64,000 nucleotides of DNA from an uncultured Pseudomonadales bacterium. GTDB lineage: Bacteria; Pseudomonadota; Gammaproteobacteria; Pseudomonadales; Azotimanducaceae. The notes beneath the pieces were generated by a model. It was not told where the DNA came from. It saw only the letters and a list, made by a program, of their open reading frames with translations, and did no database searches. Position numbers and translations under genes: made by a program. The DNA is taken from positions 12,856 to 76,855 of the forward strand of contig CAWUUH010000010.1 in the NCBI GenBank assembly GCA_963925735.1. Reading direction: 5' to 3'. How positions within the stretch are numbered: position 1 is the stretch's first letter; every line of letters starts with the position of its first letter. Shown here one piece after another: positions 21,991-45,791 of the stretch.

Positions 21991-22132
21991 GTTGCAAGGC
22001 TCATGACTGATACAACCCCGTGAAAACCGCCTTGAGTCTACCGCCTGACTGTCGATATATACAGCCAAATAACGCAGGAAATCTGCGCCCTGCTTTGGTA
22101 GGCTACGCTTTTTAGCAGGGTCAATTGTGCAT

Positions 22133-22987
22133 ATGAATGCGTCGCCAAATATTATCGAAGTCTCTGTAAAAGATTTTCAACAGGATGTGGTCGAGAAATC
22201 CAGACAGATCCCTGTGGTGCTGGAATTCTATGCCCGAGGCGCAGAACCGTCAGAACAACTGGCGCCTATTCTGGCAAAGCTCGCTGGTGAGTTCGGTGGT
22301 AAGTTTCTCTTGGCAAGGGTCAATGTCCAGGAAAATCAGCAGATCGTTCAGCAACTAAATGTACGAACGTTACCGACGTTAAAAGTCATCGTGAATGCGC
22401 AAATGGCCCAGAATCTTGAGGGCCATCAGACAGAAGCTCAACTGCGAGAAATTCTTGAATCACTGACAATGAGCCCAATAGAACGCATTCGAGAACAGAT
22501 CAACCTATTATTGCTCGCCGGCAACCGCCAGGGCGCAATTCAGATGCTTGAGGAGGCCATCGGTCAGGAGCCGCAAAACCATGCCCTGCATGTTGAACTT
22601 GCTGACCTGTTGGTCATGGAGAGTCGAATAGACGAAGCTCGCGAGCTACTTGCCACACTGCCAGTCGATACTTTAGGCATCGGCAAGCCGAAAAATCGCA
22701 TTGAATTCAGCGAACTGTCAGCTAGCTTGCCCGCGCTAACGGCGTTGATTGATAGCGTAGCCCAACAGCCTGAAGACCTACCCCTAAAATATCAGTTAGC
22801 CGTTCGACTGGTTGCCAATGATCAGATTGAGGAGGCTTTAGAGATATTACTGGAGATGCTGAAGATCGATAAAGATTATGACGAGGCACTCGCTCGACGT
22901 ACGATGGTAAAGATATTCGAGTTATTAGGTAAAGGTGACCCCACAGCCACCGCCTACCGGCGCAAGATGTTCACCTTCCTACACTAG
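22133..22987 (+). CDS. cnoX: Thioredoxin-fold plus TPR co-chaperone (YbbN/CnoX-like)
   Basis: N-terminal thioredoxin-like domain without CxxC (VVLEFYARGAEPSEQL) and a C-terminal TPR-like helical domain. Start is GTG 22127 or ATG 22133. Confidence 0.8.
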   Translation: MNASPNIIEVSVKDFQQDVVEKSRQIPVVLEFYARGAEPSEQLAPILAKLAGEFGGKFLLARVNVQENQQIVQQLNVRTLPTLKVIVNAQMAQNLEGHQTEAQLREILESLTMSPIERIREQINLLLLAGNRQGAIQMLEEAIGQEPQNHALHVELADLLVMESRIDEARELLATLPVDTLGIGKPKNRIEFSELSASLPALTALIDSVAQQPEDLPLKYQLAVRLVANDQIEEALEILLEMLKIDKDYDEALARRTMVKIFELLGKGDPTATAYRRKMFTFLH

Positions 22988-23025
22988 CTGCACTAGCCCT
23001 GACCAGCCGACCGAACCCGCTCCGA

Positions 23026-23087
23026 AAGTGCTTCTCGGGTCTTGTAGAAGCCACCTCCGGAAGTCTTTCTCGGGTCTTGTAGAAGAC
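23026..23087. repeat. Direct repeat, two copies about 35 bp apart (perfect 19-bp core TTCTCGGGTCTTGTAGAAG)
   Basis: Cores at 23032-23050 and 23067-23085 are identical. Each core contains the inverted CTTCT...AGAAG. Confidence 0.9.
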
Positions 23088-23094
23088 ACATTGT

Positions 23095-23131
23095 TGACTC
23101 GTGACAGTGACTCGTGACGGCTGACTCGCGC
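23095..23131. repeat. 13-bp tandem repeat (TGACTCGTGAC-NN), about 2.8 copies
   Basis: TGACTCGTGAC occurs at 23095 and 23108; a degenerate TGACTCGCGC occurs at 23122. Confidence 0.85.
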
Positions 23132-23160
23132 AAGTGGACGTAGATTCGTCGAGAGGCCTG

Positions 23161-23255
23161 TCATTTAGAGCGCTTTCATTGAGAATTCAGTCATTGAGAA
23201 TTCAGTCATTGAGAAACCAGTCATTGAGAAGCCAGTCACTGAGAAGCCAGTCATG
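23161..23255. repeat. 15-bp tandem repeat (TCATTGAGAA-NNCAG), about 6 copies
   Basis: Units start at 23161 (degenerate), 23176, 23191, 23206, 23221 and 23236, with a partial unit at 23251. Variation is confined to positions 4 and 11-13. Confidence 0.95.
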
Positions 23256-23342
23256 CCCTATTTCGGTGATGCCGGTCAGCACGATGATGCCACAGTCCCT
23301 TCCAGCCCCAACCTAGCCAGGTCCTCTCCTCAAAAGCTAACT

Positions 23343-23495
23343 CTAGCCAAAGTAGCGGAATAATTTTCCTTCACTTCGAAGCACACTGGCGATGATGCCA
23401 GGAGACTTCCAGGGATTGAGCTTGCCCCGATAGAGCACCTTGTCACCCTTCGTCAGCAGCCAGAGATCCATGGACCGAATATGTTTGATTTTCAT
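23343..23495 (-). CDS. Unannotated 50-aa basic small protein, predicted SOS-regulated (hypothetical)
   Basis: Hand translation gives MKIKHIRSMDLWLLTKGDKVLYRGKLNPWKSPGIIASVLRSEGKLFRYFG. AGGGG lies 9 nt upstream of the ATG, and a LexA-box promoter lies about 50-85 nt upstream. The ORF is below the 60-aa cutoff of the track. Confidence 0.5.
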   Translation of the reverse strand: MKIKHIRSMDLWLLTKGDKVLYRGKLNPWKSPGIIASVLRSEGKLFRYFG

Positions 23496-23542
23496 GATGA
23501 TCTGCCCCTATCGGATGTTGAATGTCATGTGCGGCGCACGGT

Positions 23543-23562
23543 AACTGTATACAGGTACAGTA
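23543..23562 (-). promoter_or_regulatory. LexA (SOS) box 1, overlapping the candidate -10 (TACTGT, 23562-23557)
   Basis: AACTGTATACAGGTACAGTA has an exact CTGT-N8-ACAG core. By hand count 16/20 match TACTGTATATATATACAGTA. Confidence 0.75.
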
Positions 23563-23580
23563 CTGTACGTTCAGACAGTA
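23561..23580 (-). promoter_or_regulatory. LexA (SOS) box 2, filling the spacer between candidate -35 (TTGCAT, 23585-23580) and -10
   Basis: TACTGTACGTTCAGACAGTA has an exact CTGT-N8-ACAG core. By hand count 15/20 match the consensus. It shares its terminal TA with box 1. Confidence 0.75.
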
Positions 23581-23602
23581 TGCAACAGCTTTTTAGAAAT
23601 TC

Positions 23603-24382
23603 TTAAGCGGGGGAGATGTCGAGCCAGTCGAAGCCTGTATCTTGCTCTGCAATCTGCAAGCGCCCTTGCCAGCCACTCGCATCCGCCTGCAAGACTTCAT
23701 TGACAGCCCCAAGAGCAAGATGATTAGCATTATTTTTTTCGCTGATGTGGGAAATCACCAAATGCTGCAAGCGGGGCAAATCGATTTTCTGCAGCAGACC
23801 TGCCGCTTGCTGATTGTTCAAGTGACCTCGCATACCACCAACCCGTTGCCTCAGCGCATAAGGATAGGGGCCATCAGAGAGCATCTGGAGATCGTGGTTG
23901 CATTCCAATAGCAGGGCATCACAATGTTCGTAGTGACGTTCGACATGGGGTGTAATGTGGCCTAAGTCCGTCAGCACGCCGATCGTGACTCGGCCAGAGG
24001 AAATAACGTACTGACAAGGTTCCCGGGCGTCATGAGGAACAGCCACCGGCTCAATAGACAAACTACCGACTTCAAAGGGGCGGTGACAATTAATTCTGTT
24101 GAGGTTCGGCACATCGCCCATAAGCTTGGCGCTATAAGTGCCTGGCGTCAGGTAAACCGCGGTCTTATGCTTGCGAGAGAAGGCACCGACGCCCTTAATA
24201 TGATCTGAATGCTCGTGGGTTACCAATACACCGCTGATATCCTGCGGAGTCCTTCCAATTCGATGCAGACGCCGCTCGATCTCTTTCAGGGTAAAACCCA
24301 GGTCGACAAGAATACAAGAATTCTCGTCTTCGATGAGCGTGCTGTTGCCACGACTTCCACTACCCAGAGATGTTATACGCAC
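23603..24382 (-). CDS. MBL-fold metallo-hydrolase (YycJ/PhnP-like)
   Basis: N-terminal LGSGSRGNS and the HEHSDH motif. It lies downstream of dapA-bamC, as in pseudomonads. Confidence 0.8.
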   Translation of the reverse strand: MRITSLGSGSRGNSTLIEDENSCILVDLGFTLKEIERRLHRIGRTPQDISGVLVTHEHSDHIKGVGAFSRKHKTAVYLTPGTYSAKLMGDVPNLNRINCHRPFEVGSLSIEPVAVPHDAREPCQYVISSGRVTIGVLTDLGHITPHVERHYEHCDALLLECNHDLQMLSDGPYPYALRQRVGGMRGHLNNQQAAGLLQKIDLPRLQHLVISHISEKNNANHLALGAVNEVLQADASGWQGRLQIAEQDTGFDWLDISPA

Positions 24383-24398
24383 GATGCAGTGATACTTC

Positions 24399-25532
24399 CT
24401 AGCTAGAGTGCTCTTTAATGATTTTCAGCAACCGTTCTGCCACCAATGGATCAGCCAAGTTCGTCTGATCTTTATTGATGATGACATGCACGCCGTCTTC
24501 ATGACTCTCGAGGTGTACCTGATATTTATTTTCCTCGCCAAGCGTGGCCTCATCAGTAAAAAGCCGACTGAAAAATCCTGCCTTCTGATTGGCTGTAGCG
24601 TCATACAGAATATAATAATTTGCCGAGGTTCGATCTCGATCGTCGATATTAATCGACGCATCTCCTAGCGCTTTGCCTACAGTGGCCCAGGCCCGATCAA
24701 AGTCGAGTTGCAAGCGAAGCACTGGCTTGATTCGATCGGGCAGCAATTCGATCCGACTGCTACTGATATTCATGGCGCCCTGAGATATGGAAAAACCCTG
24801 AGGAATCGTTTCGCCGAGAAAATAAGCCAGTTCCGACAACACCTTAGCCTCAATTTCGCCATCGTCTGAAGTGCCATTCCAGTTCGCTGTATCCTGCCTG
24901 ACGGGCGCGCCGCGAGGAACCTGCTTGTGCTCTAGATGAACTTCGGAACTGCCTGAACGAATACCCGCCTCGATACTCAGTCGAAATTTATTTTGTACCG
25001 TCGCGTTCGAATCGGCCCAGGCAACGCCACTCTTCAAACTCTCAAAAACCTTATCCGGCTCGCCTGCCACTGATGCCAGCCAAACACTTTCCAGAACGCC
25101 TCGACGGGCATCGGCGGACTGCAACTCCATGTTATTCACTTCCCAGAAGAGCCTTATTTTCGGCCATACTGCGGCGGGCGGAGTATCGATAAAGACCCAA
25201 CGGTCTTCGCCGAGCTTTCGAATAACAATCTGCTCCACACCGGTCGCTGTACTCAGCGGATCAGGCAAGCCAACAGTCACCTTCACACCTGTCAGGCCTC
25301 GAGCATCATCCACCGCGGGCACAATGAGCGCGTCGGTAAATACTGGCGTATCGAGACCTTCGGGGATAGTCACTCGAGGAATCGAATCAGACGTCAGGTA
25401 ATCATCACTATTATTTTTGATACCAAGCCAACTACAGCTAGATATCAAAAGTGATAAAAGTATTATCATGCTGCTGCGACGTATCGCAGCGGCATCGATC
25501 ACGCCGTAAAAAAAGCTAACGCTTTGCATCAC
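24399..25532 (-). CDS. bamC: Outer membrane protein assembly factor BamC (NlpB) lipoprotein
   Basis: Lipobox LLISSC and a position immediately after dapA. Start is GTG 25532 or ATG 25529 (4-nt overlap with dapA), or ATG 25469. Confidence 0.8.
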   Translation of the reverse strand: MMQSVSFFYGVIDAAAIRRSSMIILLSLLISSCSWLGIKNNSDDYLTSDSIPRVTIPEGLDTPVFTDALIVPAVDDARGLTGVKVTVGLPDPLSTATGVEQIVIRKLGEDRWVFIDTPPAAVWPKIRLFWEVNNMELQSADARRGVLESVWLASVAGEPDKVFESLKSGVAWADSNATVQNKFRLSIEAGIRSGSSEVHLEHKQVPRGAPVRQDTANWNGTSDDGEIEAKVLSELAYFLGETIPQGFSISQGAMNISSSRIELLPDRIKPVLRLQLDFDRAWATVGKALGDASINIDDRDRTSANYYILYDATANQKAGFFSRLFTDEATLGEENKYQVHLESHEDGVHVIINKDQTNLADPLVAERLLKIIKEHSS

Positions 25533-45389: not shown

Positions 45390-45791
45390 TTAACTGGATG
45401 ATGGCTTACTACTCGATGAACTGGGGCTAGTCCCAGACGAACTATCGGAGCCACTCGATTTACTCCCCGACGAACTCTTTTCACTAGTCCCTGAGCCACT
45501 TGAGCCAGAGCCACTTGAGCCAGAGCCACTTGAACCAGAGCTCCCACTGCCGGAATTGCCAGACGAAGAATCGCTACTAGCGCCGCCATGCAACACATTT
45601 TTCTTCGATCCGGTCTTGAAGTCCGTCTCATACCAACCAGACCCTTTTAGCCTGAACGCCGCAGCCGAGACCATCTTTTTCAATGCAGGCTTGCTACATT
45701 TAGGACAAATCACTGGCGCCTCGTCAGAGAGCTTCATGAGCTTCTCAATTCTATTCTGGCACTCTTCACACTGGTACTCGTAGATTGGCAC
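45390..45791 (-). CDS. FmdB-family zinc-ribbon protein with Ser/Gly-rich C-terminal tail
   Basis: PIYEYQCEEC...CPKC zinc ribbon. Start taken as GTG 45791, preceded by GAGGAAAG. Confidence 0.8.
   Translation of the reverse strand: MPIYEYQCEECQNRIEKLMKLSDEAPVICPKCSKPALKKMVSAAAFRLKGSGWYETDFKTGSKKNVLHGGASSDSSSGNSGSGSSGSSGSGSSGSGSSGSGTSEKSSSGSKSSGSDSSSGTSPSSSSSKPSSS

What the first reader, a model, noticed from the sequence alone, without database searches (positions are those of the whole stretch)
23343..23600. Unannotated 50-codon gene behind a double, abutting LexA operator: candidate novel SOS-induced small protein
Two 20-nt sites lie between the MBL-fold gene stop (23603) and an ORF too short for the supplied track: AACTGTATACAGGTACAGTA (23543-23562) and TACTGTACGTTCAGACAGTA (23561-23580). 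Both have the exact CTGT-N8-ACAG core of the gammaproteobacterial LexA box and share their flanking TA. This abutting arrangement is known from colicin and other very tightly repressed SOS promoters. Read on the minus strand, the sites cover a plausible sigma70 promoter: TTGCAT (23585-23580), a 17-nt spacer that is box 2, and TACTGT (23562-23557) inside box 1. Further downstream, AGGGG-N9-ATG (23495) opens MKIKHIRSMDLWLLTKGDKVLYRGKLNPWKSPGIIASVLRSEGKLFRYFG, which stops at 23343. I found no comparable box elsewhere in the places I checked, including upstream of ruvC/ruvA. I do not recognise the peptide as sulA, dinI, yebG, tisB, dinQ or symE. A double operator on a tiny basic protein suggests a product that is harmful when expressed, such as a toxin, a division or replication inhibitor, or a lysis or bacteriocin-associated factor. 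The gene is followed by an odd repeat-rich tail.
Basis: partly seen in the sequence, partly recalled or inferred. Interest (0 to 1): 0.75.

Follow-up and report, generated by a model that had tools for sequence, protein, structure and literature searches.

The report
New SOS-controlled small protein gene
A real, conserved 50-codon gene in uncultured marine gammaproteobacteria lies behind two back-to-back binding sites for the DNA-damage repressor LexA, so it is very probably a new DNA-damage-induced gene, but what its small basic protein does is unknown.

Summary
Two CTGT-N8-ACAG boxes sit at 23543-23562 and 23561-23580, and a 50-codon ORF lies at 23495-23343 on the minus strand.

- **The ORF is a real gene.** It keeps its place in about ten lineages of K189A / Ca. 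Azotimanducaceae-type marine MAGs. dN/dS is 0.01-0.17. It has a conserved Shine-Dalgarno sequence and N-terminus.
- **The operator is conserved.** The paired boxes and a TTG -35 element persist in every lineage, while the box spacers and flanking DNA vary freely.
- **The layout is a general LexA design.** An exact scan of metagenomes for this 18-bp-offset double box hit its limit at 120 loci. This family follows the box in 11 loci and lexA itself in 5.
- **The protein has no known relatives.** It is soluble and very basic (net +8, pI 10.5), with a predicted beta-beta-beta-alpha fold (pLDDT 87). Pfam, NCBIfam, PHROGs, PADLOC, PDB and Foldseek gave no significant match.
- **The toxin, lysis and bacteriocin idea is not supported.** There is no hydrophobic segment and no partner gene, and no phage or plasmid copy was found. 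Relatives in GC-rich bacteria carry no LexA box.
The operator geometry differs from ColE1 (15 bp) and E. coli lexA (21 bp). A further box lies upstream of rmuC at 22047-22066.

Function remains inferred.

The parts
23580..23585 (-). -35-like hexamer TTGCAT, directly abutting the distal LexA box
   Evidence: Read from the sequence. TTG is kept at this position in 16 of 17 related promoters (TTGAAT/TTGTAT/TTGATT/TTGCCT). In L014 a TTGTCA sits 3 nt further upstream. It is only 3/6 to consensus, and the strict scan was negative.
23561..23580 (-). Distal LexA box TACTGTCTGAACGTACAGTA (core CTGT-N8-ACAG); it fills the 17-nt promoter spacer
   Evidence: It is conserved in relatives, sometimes weakened to CTGA, CTAT or ACAT.
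23543..23562 (-). Proximal LexA box TACTGTACCTGTATACAGTT. Its first six bases, TACTGT (23562-23557), are the -10-like hexamer, and the inferred transcription start (about 23550) lies inside it
   Evidence: The exact CTGT-N8-ACAG core is present in every related locus that holds upstream DNA.
23505..23509 (-). Shine-Dalgarno AGGGG, 9 nt before the ATG
   Evidence: A purine-rich GGAG/GAGG-like element precedes the start at a similar distance in most relatives.
23343..23495 (-). 50-codon gene: MKIKHIRSMDLWLLTKGDKVLYRGKLNPWKSPGIIASVLRSEGKLFRYFG. The protein is soluble, net +8, pI 10.5, with a predicted beta-beta-beta-alpha fold
   Evidence: ORF. Homologues at 78-98% identity in syntenic loci. dN/dS 0.01-0.17. 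Wider family of about 80 clusters. AF2 pLDDT 87. Charge and hydropathy.
22988..23342 (.). Non-conserved spacer between the convergent small gene and ybbN. It holds three local tandem arrays: 15-mer x5.3 at 23176-23254, 13-mer x2.5 at 23095-23128, 35-mer x2 at 23020-23089. Probably not a functional part
   Evidence: Relatives carry different repeat units at the same place. Copy number differs in a near-identical strain.
22047..22066 (-). Context: single LexA-like box GGCTGTATATATCGACAGTC (minus strand), 57 nt upstream of the conserved rmuC start (ATG 21990)
   Evidence: It is conserved in L002 and degenerate in L001. It is absent where ybbN and rmuC follow the small gene co-directionally.
23603..24382 (-). 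Context: MBL-fold hydrolase gene, always immediately upstream and co-oriented. Its stop lies 22 nt before the distal 20-nt box here (about 21-61 nt in most relatives)

Best explanation
This is a chromosomal member of the LexA (SOS) regulon that encodes a previously uncharacterised small protein.

**Regulation.** A weak sigma-70-type promoter is built into a double operator: -35 TTGCAT, a 17-nt spacer, and -10 TACTGT. The distal LexA box is the spacer. The proximal box supplies the -10 hexamer and covers the start site. Two LexA dimers bound 18 bp apart (centre to centre, sharing a TA) would exclude RNA polymerase. After DNA damage, RecA-stimulated LexA self-cleavage frees the promoter. This gives an mRNA with a leader of about 55 nt and translation from AGGGG-N9-ATG.

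**Product.** The protein has 50 residues, is soluble and strongly basic (net +8), and is predicted to form a three-stranded sheet packed on a C-terminal helix. Its most likely mode of action is binding a cytoplasmic macromolecule during the damage response (nucleic acid, or a replication, recombination or division protein), not membrane damage. Outside the K189A clade most orthologues end in -AA, -VA or -LAA. This resembles ssrA/ClpX-type C-terminal degrons and would suit a short-lived effector.

**Shown:** the sequence features, their conservation, the coding constraint and the fold prediction.

**Inferred:** LexA binding, damage induction, the promoter and start site, turnover, and the biochemical activity.
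For: **Boxes**
- The boxes are exact and enriched in the window: 4 observed against 0.6 expected, with 0 of 100 shuffles reaching 4.
- In 17 related promoters from about ten lineages the CTGT/ACAG arms, the ACAGTACTGT junction and the upstream TTG are near-invariant. The box spacers, the leader (27-314 nt) and the flanks vary.

**The same layout elsewhere**
- A scan of metagenome contigs for CTGT-N8-ACAGTACTGT-N8-ACAG reached its 120-locus limit.
- An HMM of the family found a member immediately downstream in 11 of the 120 loci.
- Five other loci have lexA itself downstream. This geometry is therefore used for LexA autoregulation.

**Coding**
- Substitution counts by codon position are, for example, 2/4/21. 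dN/dS is 0.01-0.17 wherever dS is unsaturated.
- Profile searches find 25 representatives and 80 clusters sharing W12, Y22, G24, P28 and W29.

**Protein properties**
- The AF2 model from a 43-sequence alignment has pLDDT 87.4, with strands at 2-6, 11-16 and 19-24 and a helix at 32-49.
- pI is 10-12 across the family, with no membrane-spanning segment.
- C-termini of the non-K189A orthologues are RSAA, QSAA, RCAA, RFAA, KLAA, RQVA, RLVA, SAVA and RLIA.

**Context**
- rmuC, 1.3 kb away, carries its own LexA-like box.
- Paired SOS boxes are reported to give very tight repression (PMC2994835).
Against: - No experiment exists, and the organisms are uncultured.
- lexA is not in the window. I could not read a whole genome of the clade to show that its recA, lexA or recN carry the same motif.
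- The promoter hexamers are weak and fail a strict consensus scan. No terminator was found.
- The distal box is degenerate in some lineages. In the P0014 lineage it is ACAT with a 17-bp offset.
- In two sublineages about 200 bp is inserted between operator and ORF.
- The larger 'RD' subfamily in GC-rich bacteria has no gamma-type LexA box. SOS control is therefore lineage-specific and not intrinsic to the family.
- Nucleic-acid binding rests only on charge and fold topology. Foldseek found nothing significant. hhalign against AP2, YegP and Sso7d sequences was negative.
- K189A-clade proteins, including the window's, end in FRYFG and not in an -AA degron.
Confidence: 0.7

Rival explanations
1. 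SOS-induced toxin, lysis factor or bacteriocin-associated peptide. The double operator would exist because the product is lethal.
For: Double SOS boxes are typical of lethal colicin operons (PMC2994835). The product is tiny, basic and tightly repressed. The degron-like C-termini in many orthologues would fit a product that must be removed quickly.
Against: - There is no hydrophobic or amphipathic membrane segment, unlike TisB, DinQ, Hok or holins.
- No conserved partner gene (immunity, antitoxin or lysis) is present. The downstream neighbour changes between lineages.
- The gene sits in a fixed core-genome position, and tblastn of the window protein against phages and of an RD-subfamily relative against plasmids found nothing credible.
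- PADLOC and PHROGs were negative.
- Strong purifying selection acts across deep lineages.
- Relatives without LexA control exist.
Confidence: 0.12
2. The double operator is mainly the SOS promoter of a longer unit (small gene, ybbN, rmuC). The small ORF would be an upstream or leader gene whose product matters little by itself.
For: In most non-K189A lineages the order is MBL, boxes, small gene, ybbN, rmuC, all co-directional, with no separate box before rmuC. In the K189A clade ybbN is inverted and rmuC carries its own box. That rmuC (yigN) is LexA-regulated in E. coli is my own knowledge of the published SOS regulon.
Against: - In this window ybbN is convergent, so the operator can only drive the small gene.
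- The peptide sequence itself is under strong purifying selection. Its N-terminal 45 residues are conserved far beyond this synteny, which a mere leader would not need.
- Gaps of 100-750 nt separate the small gene from ybbN.
Confidence: 0.15
3. The boxes control a non-coding RNA, or are chance palindromes or sites for another regulator, and the ORF is incidental.
For: No promoter or terminator passes a strict scan. The leader and tail are repeat-rich and variable.
Against: - dN/dS of 0.01-0.17 and the third-position bias show translation-level selection.
- No Rfam match was found, even at E <= 1.
- The non-coding flanks are not conserved, whereas the ORF and boxes are.
- The motif equals the gammaproteobacterial LexA consensus, and the same paired layout precedes lexA genes.
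Confidence: 0.03

Closest known systems
Multi-operator SOS promoters of E. coli (lexA with two boxes, recN, ydjM) and the colicin operons with two overlapping boxes
   Same: Two LexA boxes with the CTGT-N8-ACAG core overlap a promoter. The paired arrangement is associated with tight repression and little basal expression (PMC2994835).
   Different: The geometry differs. The offset here is 18 bp, with the 20-mers sharing TA. The E. coli lexA operator has a 21-bp offset and ColE1 a 15-bp offset. Both of those sequences were verified in public records, though that the ColE1 site is the cea operator rests on my own knowledge. The gene controlled here is neither a repressor, a repair enzyme nor a bacteriocin.
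Small SOS-induced proteins: DinI, YebG, SulA, and the peptides TisB, DinQ, HokE and SymE
   Same: A short product whose gene is directly repressed by LexA.
   Different: None of their Pfam or NCBIfam models matches. It is not hydrophobic like TisB, DinQ or Hok. It is basic, whereas DinI is acidic (own knowledge). It is much shorter than SulA.
Small SOS cell-division inhibitors of SulA-less bacteria (SidA and DidA of Caulobacter, YneA of Bacillus, SosA of Staphylococcus)
   Same: Lineage-restricted, very small, LexA-controlled effectors discovered through their operators. Some are controlled by proteolysis.
   Different: Those are membrane-anchored proteins (own knowledge). This one has no transmembrane segment. 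No link to division was tested.
Small three-strand-plus-helix nucleic-acid-binding folds (AP2/integrase-N type, chromo/Sso7d-like, YegP)
   Same: The predicted topology is beta-beta-beta-alpha in about 45 residues with high positive charge. Weak Foldseek hits include AP2- and HNH-associated phage proteins and an AP2 domain.
   Different: No hit is significant: every Foldseek E-value exceeds 0.1. hhalign probabilities are 1% or lower. The Pfam SH3_TNRC18 hit is below threshold. The resemblance is in topology only.

Membership tests
LexA (SOS) regulon gene, gammaproteobacterial type | Promoter-proximal match to the LexA-binding motif CTGT-N8-ACAG / TACTGT(AT)4ACAGTA | tested here: met
   Two exact cores, matching the 20-mer consensus at 15/20 and 16/20. 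The window holds 4 sites against 0.6 expected.
LexA (SOS) regulon gene, gammaproteobacterial type | The site is conserved upstream of orthologues while surrounding non-coding DNA diverges (phylogenetic footprint) | tested here: met
   17 promoters from about ten lineages. Arms and junction are at least 90% conserved and the spacers are free to vary.
LexA (SOS) regulon gene, gammaproteobacterial type | The operator overlaps the functional promoter | tested here: inconclusive
   A conserved TTG-N3, 17-nt spacer and TACTGT fit the operator exactly. The hexamers are weak and the strict scan finds nothing. There are no transcript data.
LexA (SOS) regulon gene, gammaproteobacterial type | The organism encodes LexA, and the same motif is used at core SOS genes (lexA, recA, recN) | tested here: inconclusive
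   lexA is not in the window. rmuC nearby has a box. The identical double box precedes lexA in five metagenome loci of unknown taxa. No full genome of the clade could be read.
LexA (SOS) regulon gene, gammaproteobacterial type | LexA binds in vitro, and expression rises after DNA damage in a lexA- and recA-dependent way | not testable with these tools
   Needs EMSA or footprinting and a reporter or RNA measurement.
Colicin-type operator and bacteriocin module | Two overlapping SOS boxes with the ColE1-like offset | tested here: not met
   ColE1 cores overlap by 1 nt, giving a 15-bp offset. Here the cores are 2 nt apart, giving an 18-bp offset.
Colicin-type operator and bacteriocin module | Toxin, immunity and lysis genes downstream, usually on a plasmid | tested here: not met
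   Only a 50-aa ORF follows, then a convergent ybbN. tblastn of the window protein against phages and of an RD-subfamily relative against plasmids found no credible match.
Type I toxins of the SOS regulon (TisB, DinQ, Hok) | Hydrophobic membrane-inserting helix | tested here: not met
   The maximum 15-residue Kyte-Doolittle mean is 0.63 and GRAVY is -0.24.
Type I toxins of the SOS regulon (TisB, DinQ, Hok) | Cis- or divergently encoded antisense RNA antitoxin | not tested
   No Rfam hit in 22000-24500. No dedicated search for a conserved antisense promoter was made.
DinI / YebG / SulA / SymE families | Match to the family profile | tested here: not met
   Pfam at E <= 1 (window protein) and E <= 10 (24 family members), and NCBIfam at E <= 1, list none of them.
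   SH3_TNRC18 scores 16.2 bits against a cut-off of 27, with 5 of 24 members at E >= 0.001. The model has three strands plus a helix. There is no significant Foldseek hit.

The most novel reading that the evidence does not exclude
The protein is a new type of SOS effector for abundant uncultured marine gammaproteobacteria. It would be a soluble, basic, rapidly turned-over 50-residue protein that transiently blocks or remodels a DNA transaction (replication restart, recombination with RmuC, or cell division) by direct binding. It would fill the role that SulA, DinI or the membrane-bound SidA/YneA-type inhibitors fill elsewhere. Its 18-bp-offset double operator would be a distinct cooperative LexA binding mode that delays its induction to severe damage.
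Probability: 0.25. Interest if true: 0.7.

Novelty: new member of a known kind. Interest (0 to 1): 0.5.

Why it matters
SOS regulons outside model organisms repeatedly turn out to hold small, lineage-specific effectors such as checkpoint inhibitors and RecA or LexA modulators. These are invisible to homology annotation and are found only through their operators.

This gene is such a candidate. It occurs in widespread, uncultured ocean-surface gammaproteobacteria, where UV damage is a daily stress. One orthologue is seen on several hundred metagenome contigs, including Tara samples.

Several properties make it directly testable in a surrogate host:
- It is short enough to synthesise.
- It has a confident fold model.
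- Its operator is clean and portable.
- A natural control group exists: homologues without LexA boxes.

The metagenome scan also shows that the 18-bp-offset paired box is a recurrent LexA operator design. It is used for lexA itself and for several other uncharacterised small genes. That is useful for regulon prediction.

Tried and rejected
**Family and structure searches, all negative**
- Rfam on 22000-24500 at E <= 1 found nothing.
- Pfam, NCBIfam, PHROGs and PADLOC on the protein and on family members gave only a sub-threshold SH3_TNRC18 hit.
- A PDB profile search gave only a chance LptC hit at E 0.015.
- The first AF2 run, with 4 sequences, was poor (pLDDT 64). The 43-sequence run was good.
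- Foldseek against PDB and BFVD gave no hit below E 0.1.
I dropped these as memberships and keep only a resemblance in topology.

**Searches that failed or added nothing**
- The search for related loci with the broad alignments failed because no stretch was conserved enough. The narrow alignment worked.
- I looked for a link between the 'RD' subfamily and DinF. The adjacent MATE transporter is generic.
- I could not determine the taxon of the RD lineages.
- Two literature searches for a described family found nothing relevant.
- The tail repeats are not a dispersed element, because the units occur nowhere else in the window.
- tblastn for lexA in the window found nothing. One search was lost to a machine error.
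Full report
**1. What is in the sequence**

Read on the minus strand, the MBL-fold gene stops at 23603. The following elements come next:
- TTGCAT at 23585-23580.
- TACTGTCTGAACGTACAGTA at 23580-23561.
- TACTGTACCTGTATACAGTT at 23562-23543.
- A 33-nt stretch, then AGGGG at 23509-23505.
- Nine nucleotides, then a 50-codon ORF from ATG 23495 to the stop at 23345-23343.

Exact CTGT-N8-ACAG occurs four times in the window, against 0.6 expected. None of 100 dinucleotide-preserving shuffles reached four.

One lies at 22047-22066, 57 nt upstream of the conserved rmuC start. The other lies inside bamC at 24593; it is not found in relatives and is probably chance.

A strict sigma-70 and terminator scan of 22900-23700 is empty. 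Each proposed hexamer matches the consensus at only 3 of 6 positions.

**2. The ORF is a real gene**

A word-indexed search of 5.8 billion proteins found four close homologues at 78-98% identity. Their contigs show the same order: dapA, bamC, MBL, small ORF, ybbN, rmuC. A scan of species-representative genomes placed the close relatives in uncultured marine MAGs. These are labelled K189A clade, Candidatus Azotimanducaceae, Pseudomonadales or Gammaproteobacteria.

An alignment of the intergenic region shows the ORF and the boxes conserved while everything else has diverged. Substitutions fall mainly on third codon positions, for example 2/4/21 for window against L001. Nei-Gojobori dN/dS is 0.01-0.17 wherever dS is not saturated.

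The identical protein already exists in public records as 'hypothetical protein' (MEJ6593314.1, NQV66496.1, UniRef100_A0A973AB83). Orthologues are seen on tens to hundreds of metagenome contigs, including Tara samples. The gene is therefore missing only from the supplied track.

**3. The operator is conserved with the gene**

Every close relative with upstream DNA keeps two abutting boxes at an 18-bp offset, 27-251 nt before the start codon.

I then scanned metagenome contigs for the exact pattern CTGT-N8-ACAGTACTGT-N8-ACAG. An HMM of the family found a member directly downstream of the boxes in 11 of them. Several were much more divergent orthologues, such as MRVRHIRSLDIWLMSKGNRVLYRGKENPWRSTRIMQSALRREGVQSAA. 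Two further divergent lineages, fetched through their proteins, also carry the boxes.

Across 17 promoters the consensus is cTTGaata-CTGTtttaatATACAGTACTGTAc....atACAGTa. The TTG, both sets of arms and the junction are 90% or more conserved, and the internal spacers are free to vary. TTG-N3 followed by a 17-nt spacer and TACTGT is a promoter fully embedded in the operator. The distal box is the spacer. The proximal box is the -10 element and the start site. This reading is an inference; no transcript data exist.

There are exceptions. The distal box is weakened in some lineages (CTGA, CTAT). In the P0014 lineage it reads ACAT with a 17-bp offset. Two sublineages have about 200 bp inserted between operator and ORF.

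**4. The paired layout is a general LexA design**

I clustered the ORFs next to the 120 double boxes. The recurrent neighbours are:
- A family of small proteins with a C-terminal hydrophobic segment (17 loci).
- A 93-aa family (13 loci).
- Phage-like divergent gene pairs (12 and 8 loci).
- The present family (11 loci).
- Unmistakable LexA proteins (5 loci).

Finding the same layout in front of lexA is the best evidence available here that LexA binds this arrangement.

The layout differs from the textbook cases. I checked the E. coli lexA operator, which has a 21-bp offset and is present in 5416 of 5426 genomes directly upstream of lexA. I also checked the ColE1 site, which has a 15-bp offset and is present in ColE1 NC_001371.1. 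Its assignment to cea rests on my own knowledge. The literature links paired boxes to very tight repression and no basal expression (PMC2994835).

**5. The protein**

Profile searching without a word index found 25 representatives. A second indexed search with the family alignment found 80 clusters. All are 'hypothetical' and none has a Pfam domain.

The common core is M-K-I-x-[HR]-x5-W-x-L-[ST]-x-G-x2-V-L-Y-x-G-x2-[SN]-P-W-x-[SD]-P-x-I-[IL]. W12, Y22, G24, P28 and W29 are invariant or nearly so.

With a 43-sequence alignment, AlphaFold2 gives pLDDT 87.4. The model has three strands (2-6, 11-16, 19-24), a conserved loop and a helix at 32-49. All members are hydrophilic and basic, with pI 10-12. 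The window protein has a net charge of +8 and no membrane segment.

No significant relative turned up in any of these searches:
- Pfam, NCBIfam, PHROGs and PADLOC.
- PDB sequences.
- Foldseek against PDB and BFVD.
- hhalign against AP2, YegP and Sso7d.

The fold resembles small three-strand-plus-helix nucleic-acid binders in topology only.

One sequence feature may bear on function. Nine of about thirteen non-K189A orthologues end in -AA, -VA, -IA or -LAA, for example ...GAKLAA. This resembles the C-terminal ClpX recognition class (own knowledge). It would suit an effector that must disappear once repair is complete. The K189A proteins, including the window's, end in FRYFG instead.

**6. What argues against a toxin or bacteriocin**

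- There is no hydrophobic helix.
- There is no conserved partner gene, and the downstream neighbour changes between lineages. It is a convergent ybbN here and in L081, a co-directional ybbN in most others, and an oxidoreductase in L092/L125.
- The gene holds a fixed core-genome position.
- tblastn of the window protein against phages, and of an RD-subfamily relative against plasmids, found nothing credible.
- The largest branch of the family ('RD' type, MKIxRDxQSKFWVLSSxxRVLYKGRRSPWDDPTIIRQALDRER) lives in GC-rich bacteria. There it lies divergent from a SAM methyltransferase and often upstream of a generic MATE transporter, with no gamma-type LexA box.

SOS control is therefore a property of the marine 'H' branch and not of the family as a whole.

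**7. Context**

In most H-type lineages the order is MBL, boxes, small gene, ybbN, rmuC, all co-directional, with no separate box before rmuC. In the K189A clade ybbN alone is inverted and rmuC has its own box. That box is conserved in L002 and degenerate in L001.

The operator may therefore once have served a longer SOS unit ending in rmuC. In this window it can only drive the small gene.

**8. The 'odd repeat-rich tail'**

The region 22988-23342 holds three local tandem arrays. Relatives have arrays with unrelated units at the same place, or in the 5' leader.

Copy number differs between near-identical strains. An 18-mer is present once in the window and three times in L085, and L143 differs from L144. 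The units occur nowhere else in the window. Similar arrays occur in other intergenic spacers of these genomes.

I read the tail as unconstrained, slippage-prone spacer DNA and not as part of the system. I cannot explain why it gathers around this gene.

**9. Verdict**

| Claim | My estimate |
|---|---|
| The ORF is a protein-coding gene | about 0.97 |
| It is LexA-controlled | about 0.85 |
| It acts as a cytoplasmic binder of nucleic acid or protein | about 0.4 |
| It is a toxin, lysis or bacteriocin factor | about 0.1 |

It is a new member of a known kind: an SOS regulon gene behind a multi-box operator. The protein family itself is uncharacterised. Interest is moderate at 0.5. The evidence is clean and conserved, the gene sits in ecologically abundant organisms and it is easy to test, but the regulatory logic is classical and the function is still unknown.

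Noticed in passing
window 22047-22066: A single LexA-like box (GGCTGTATATATCGACAGTC on the minus strand) lies 57 nt upstream of the conserved rmuC start (ATG 21990). The listed TTG start at 22068 is probably too far upstream. The box is conserved in L002 (6285-6304) and degenerate in L001. It is absent in lineages where ybbN and rmuC follow the small gene co-directionally.
   Followed up: partly
window 24591-24610: A fourth exact CTGT-N8-ACAG (GGCTGTAGCGTCATACAGAA) lies inside the bamC coding region. No exact match is present in bamC of the related loci, so it is probably chance.
   Followed up: partly
window 22988-23342; also L001 5208-5478, L006 5259-5343, L013, L012, L143/L144 leader and tail: Lineage-specific tandem arrays with units of 10-38 nt flank the small gene, in the 3' tail or the 5' leader, in most lineages. 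The unit sequences are unrelated between lineages. Copy number differs between near-identical strains (window against L085; L143 against L144). The cause is unexplained. It may simply be slippage in unconstrained spacer DNA.
   Followed up: partly
L002 4750-4990, L013, L032 (between operator and ORF): An insertion of about 200 bp separates the double LexA box from the small ORF in one sublineage, giving leaders of 211-251 nt. I did not determine what the insert is (MITE, second small ORF or RNA element).
   Followed up: no
window 22127-22987 (+) against L143 3402-4271, L113, L145: ybbN (thioredoxin-TPR, CnoX-like) is inverted in the K189A clade relative to most other H-type lineages. In those, small gene, ybbN and rmuC are co-directional.
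   Followed up: partly
metagenome loci L053, L055, L060, L074, L097, L124 and others (17 of 120): A different family of small ORFs (about 52-115 aa) starts 2-102 nt (mostly 2-48 nt) after the same 18-bp-offset double LexA box. It has a C-terminal hydrophobic segment (...DILLLSFWVAMIPAVLLIGNAAGF). It may be another uncharacterised SOS membrane peptide.
   Followed up: no
metagenome loci L051, L116, L128, L140, L059, L100, L126 (13 of 120): A 93-102 aa family (MNQLIRILNDGDRETLAWLRKHVGD... / MEHLVRVYNEKDR...) starts 8-17 nt after the double box. In five loci a conserved 134-148 aa gene follows it. Neither was identified.
   Followed up: no
L084 1077-1218; L094 8227-8309: L084 carries three consecutive double boxes (six LexA boxes) spaced 54 bp apart. 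L094 carries two double boxes 49 bp apart. These are unusually dense operator arrays.
   Followed up: no
L015-L018, L020 (about 60-110 nt upstream of the RD-type homologues): GC-rich relatives without LexA boxes share the upstream elements TTACAAG/CATACAAG and TTTGCGCCACCAT. They also share a divergent SAM-methyltransferase gene and usually a MATE transporter directly downstream. This suggests a different, unidentified regulation.
   Followed up: partly
window 45493-45541: Another intergenic tandem array (15-mer GAGCCACTTGAGCCA x3.3) lies elsewhere in the window. It shows that such arrays are not unique to the small-gene tail.
   Followed up: no
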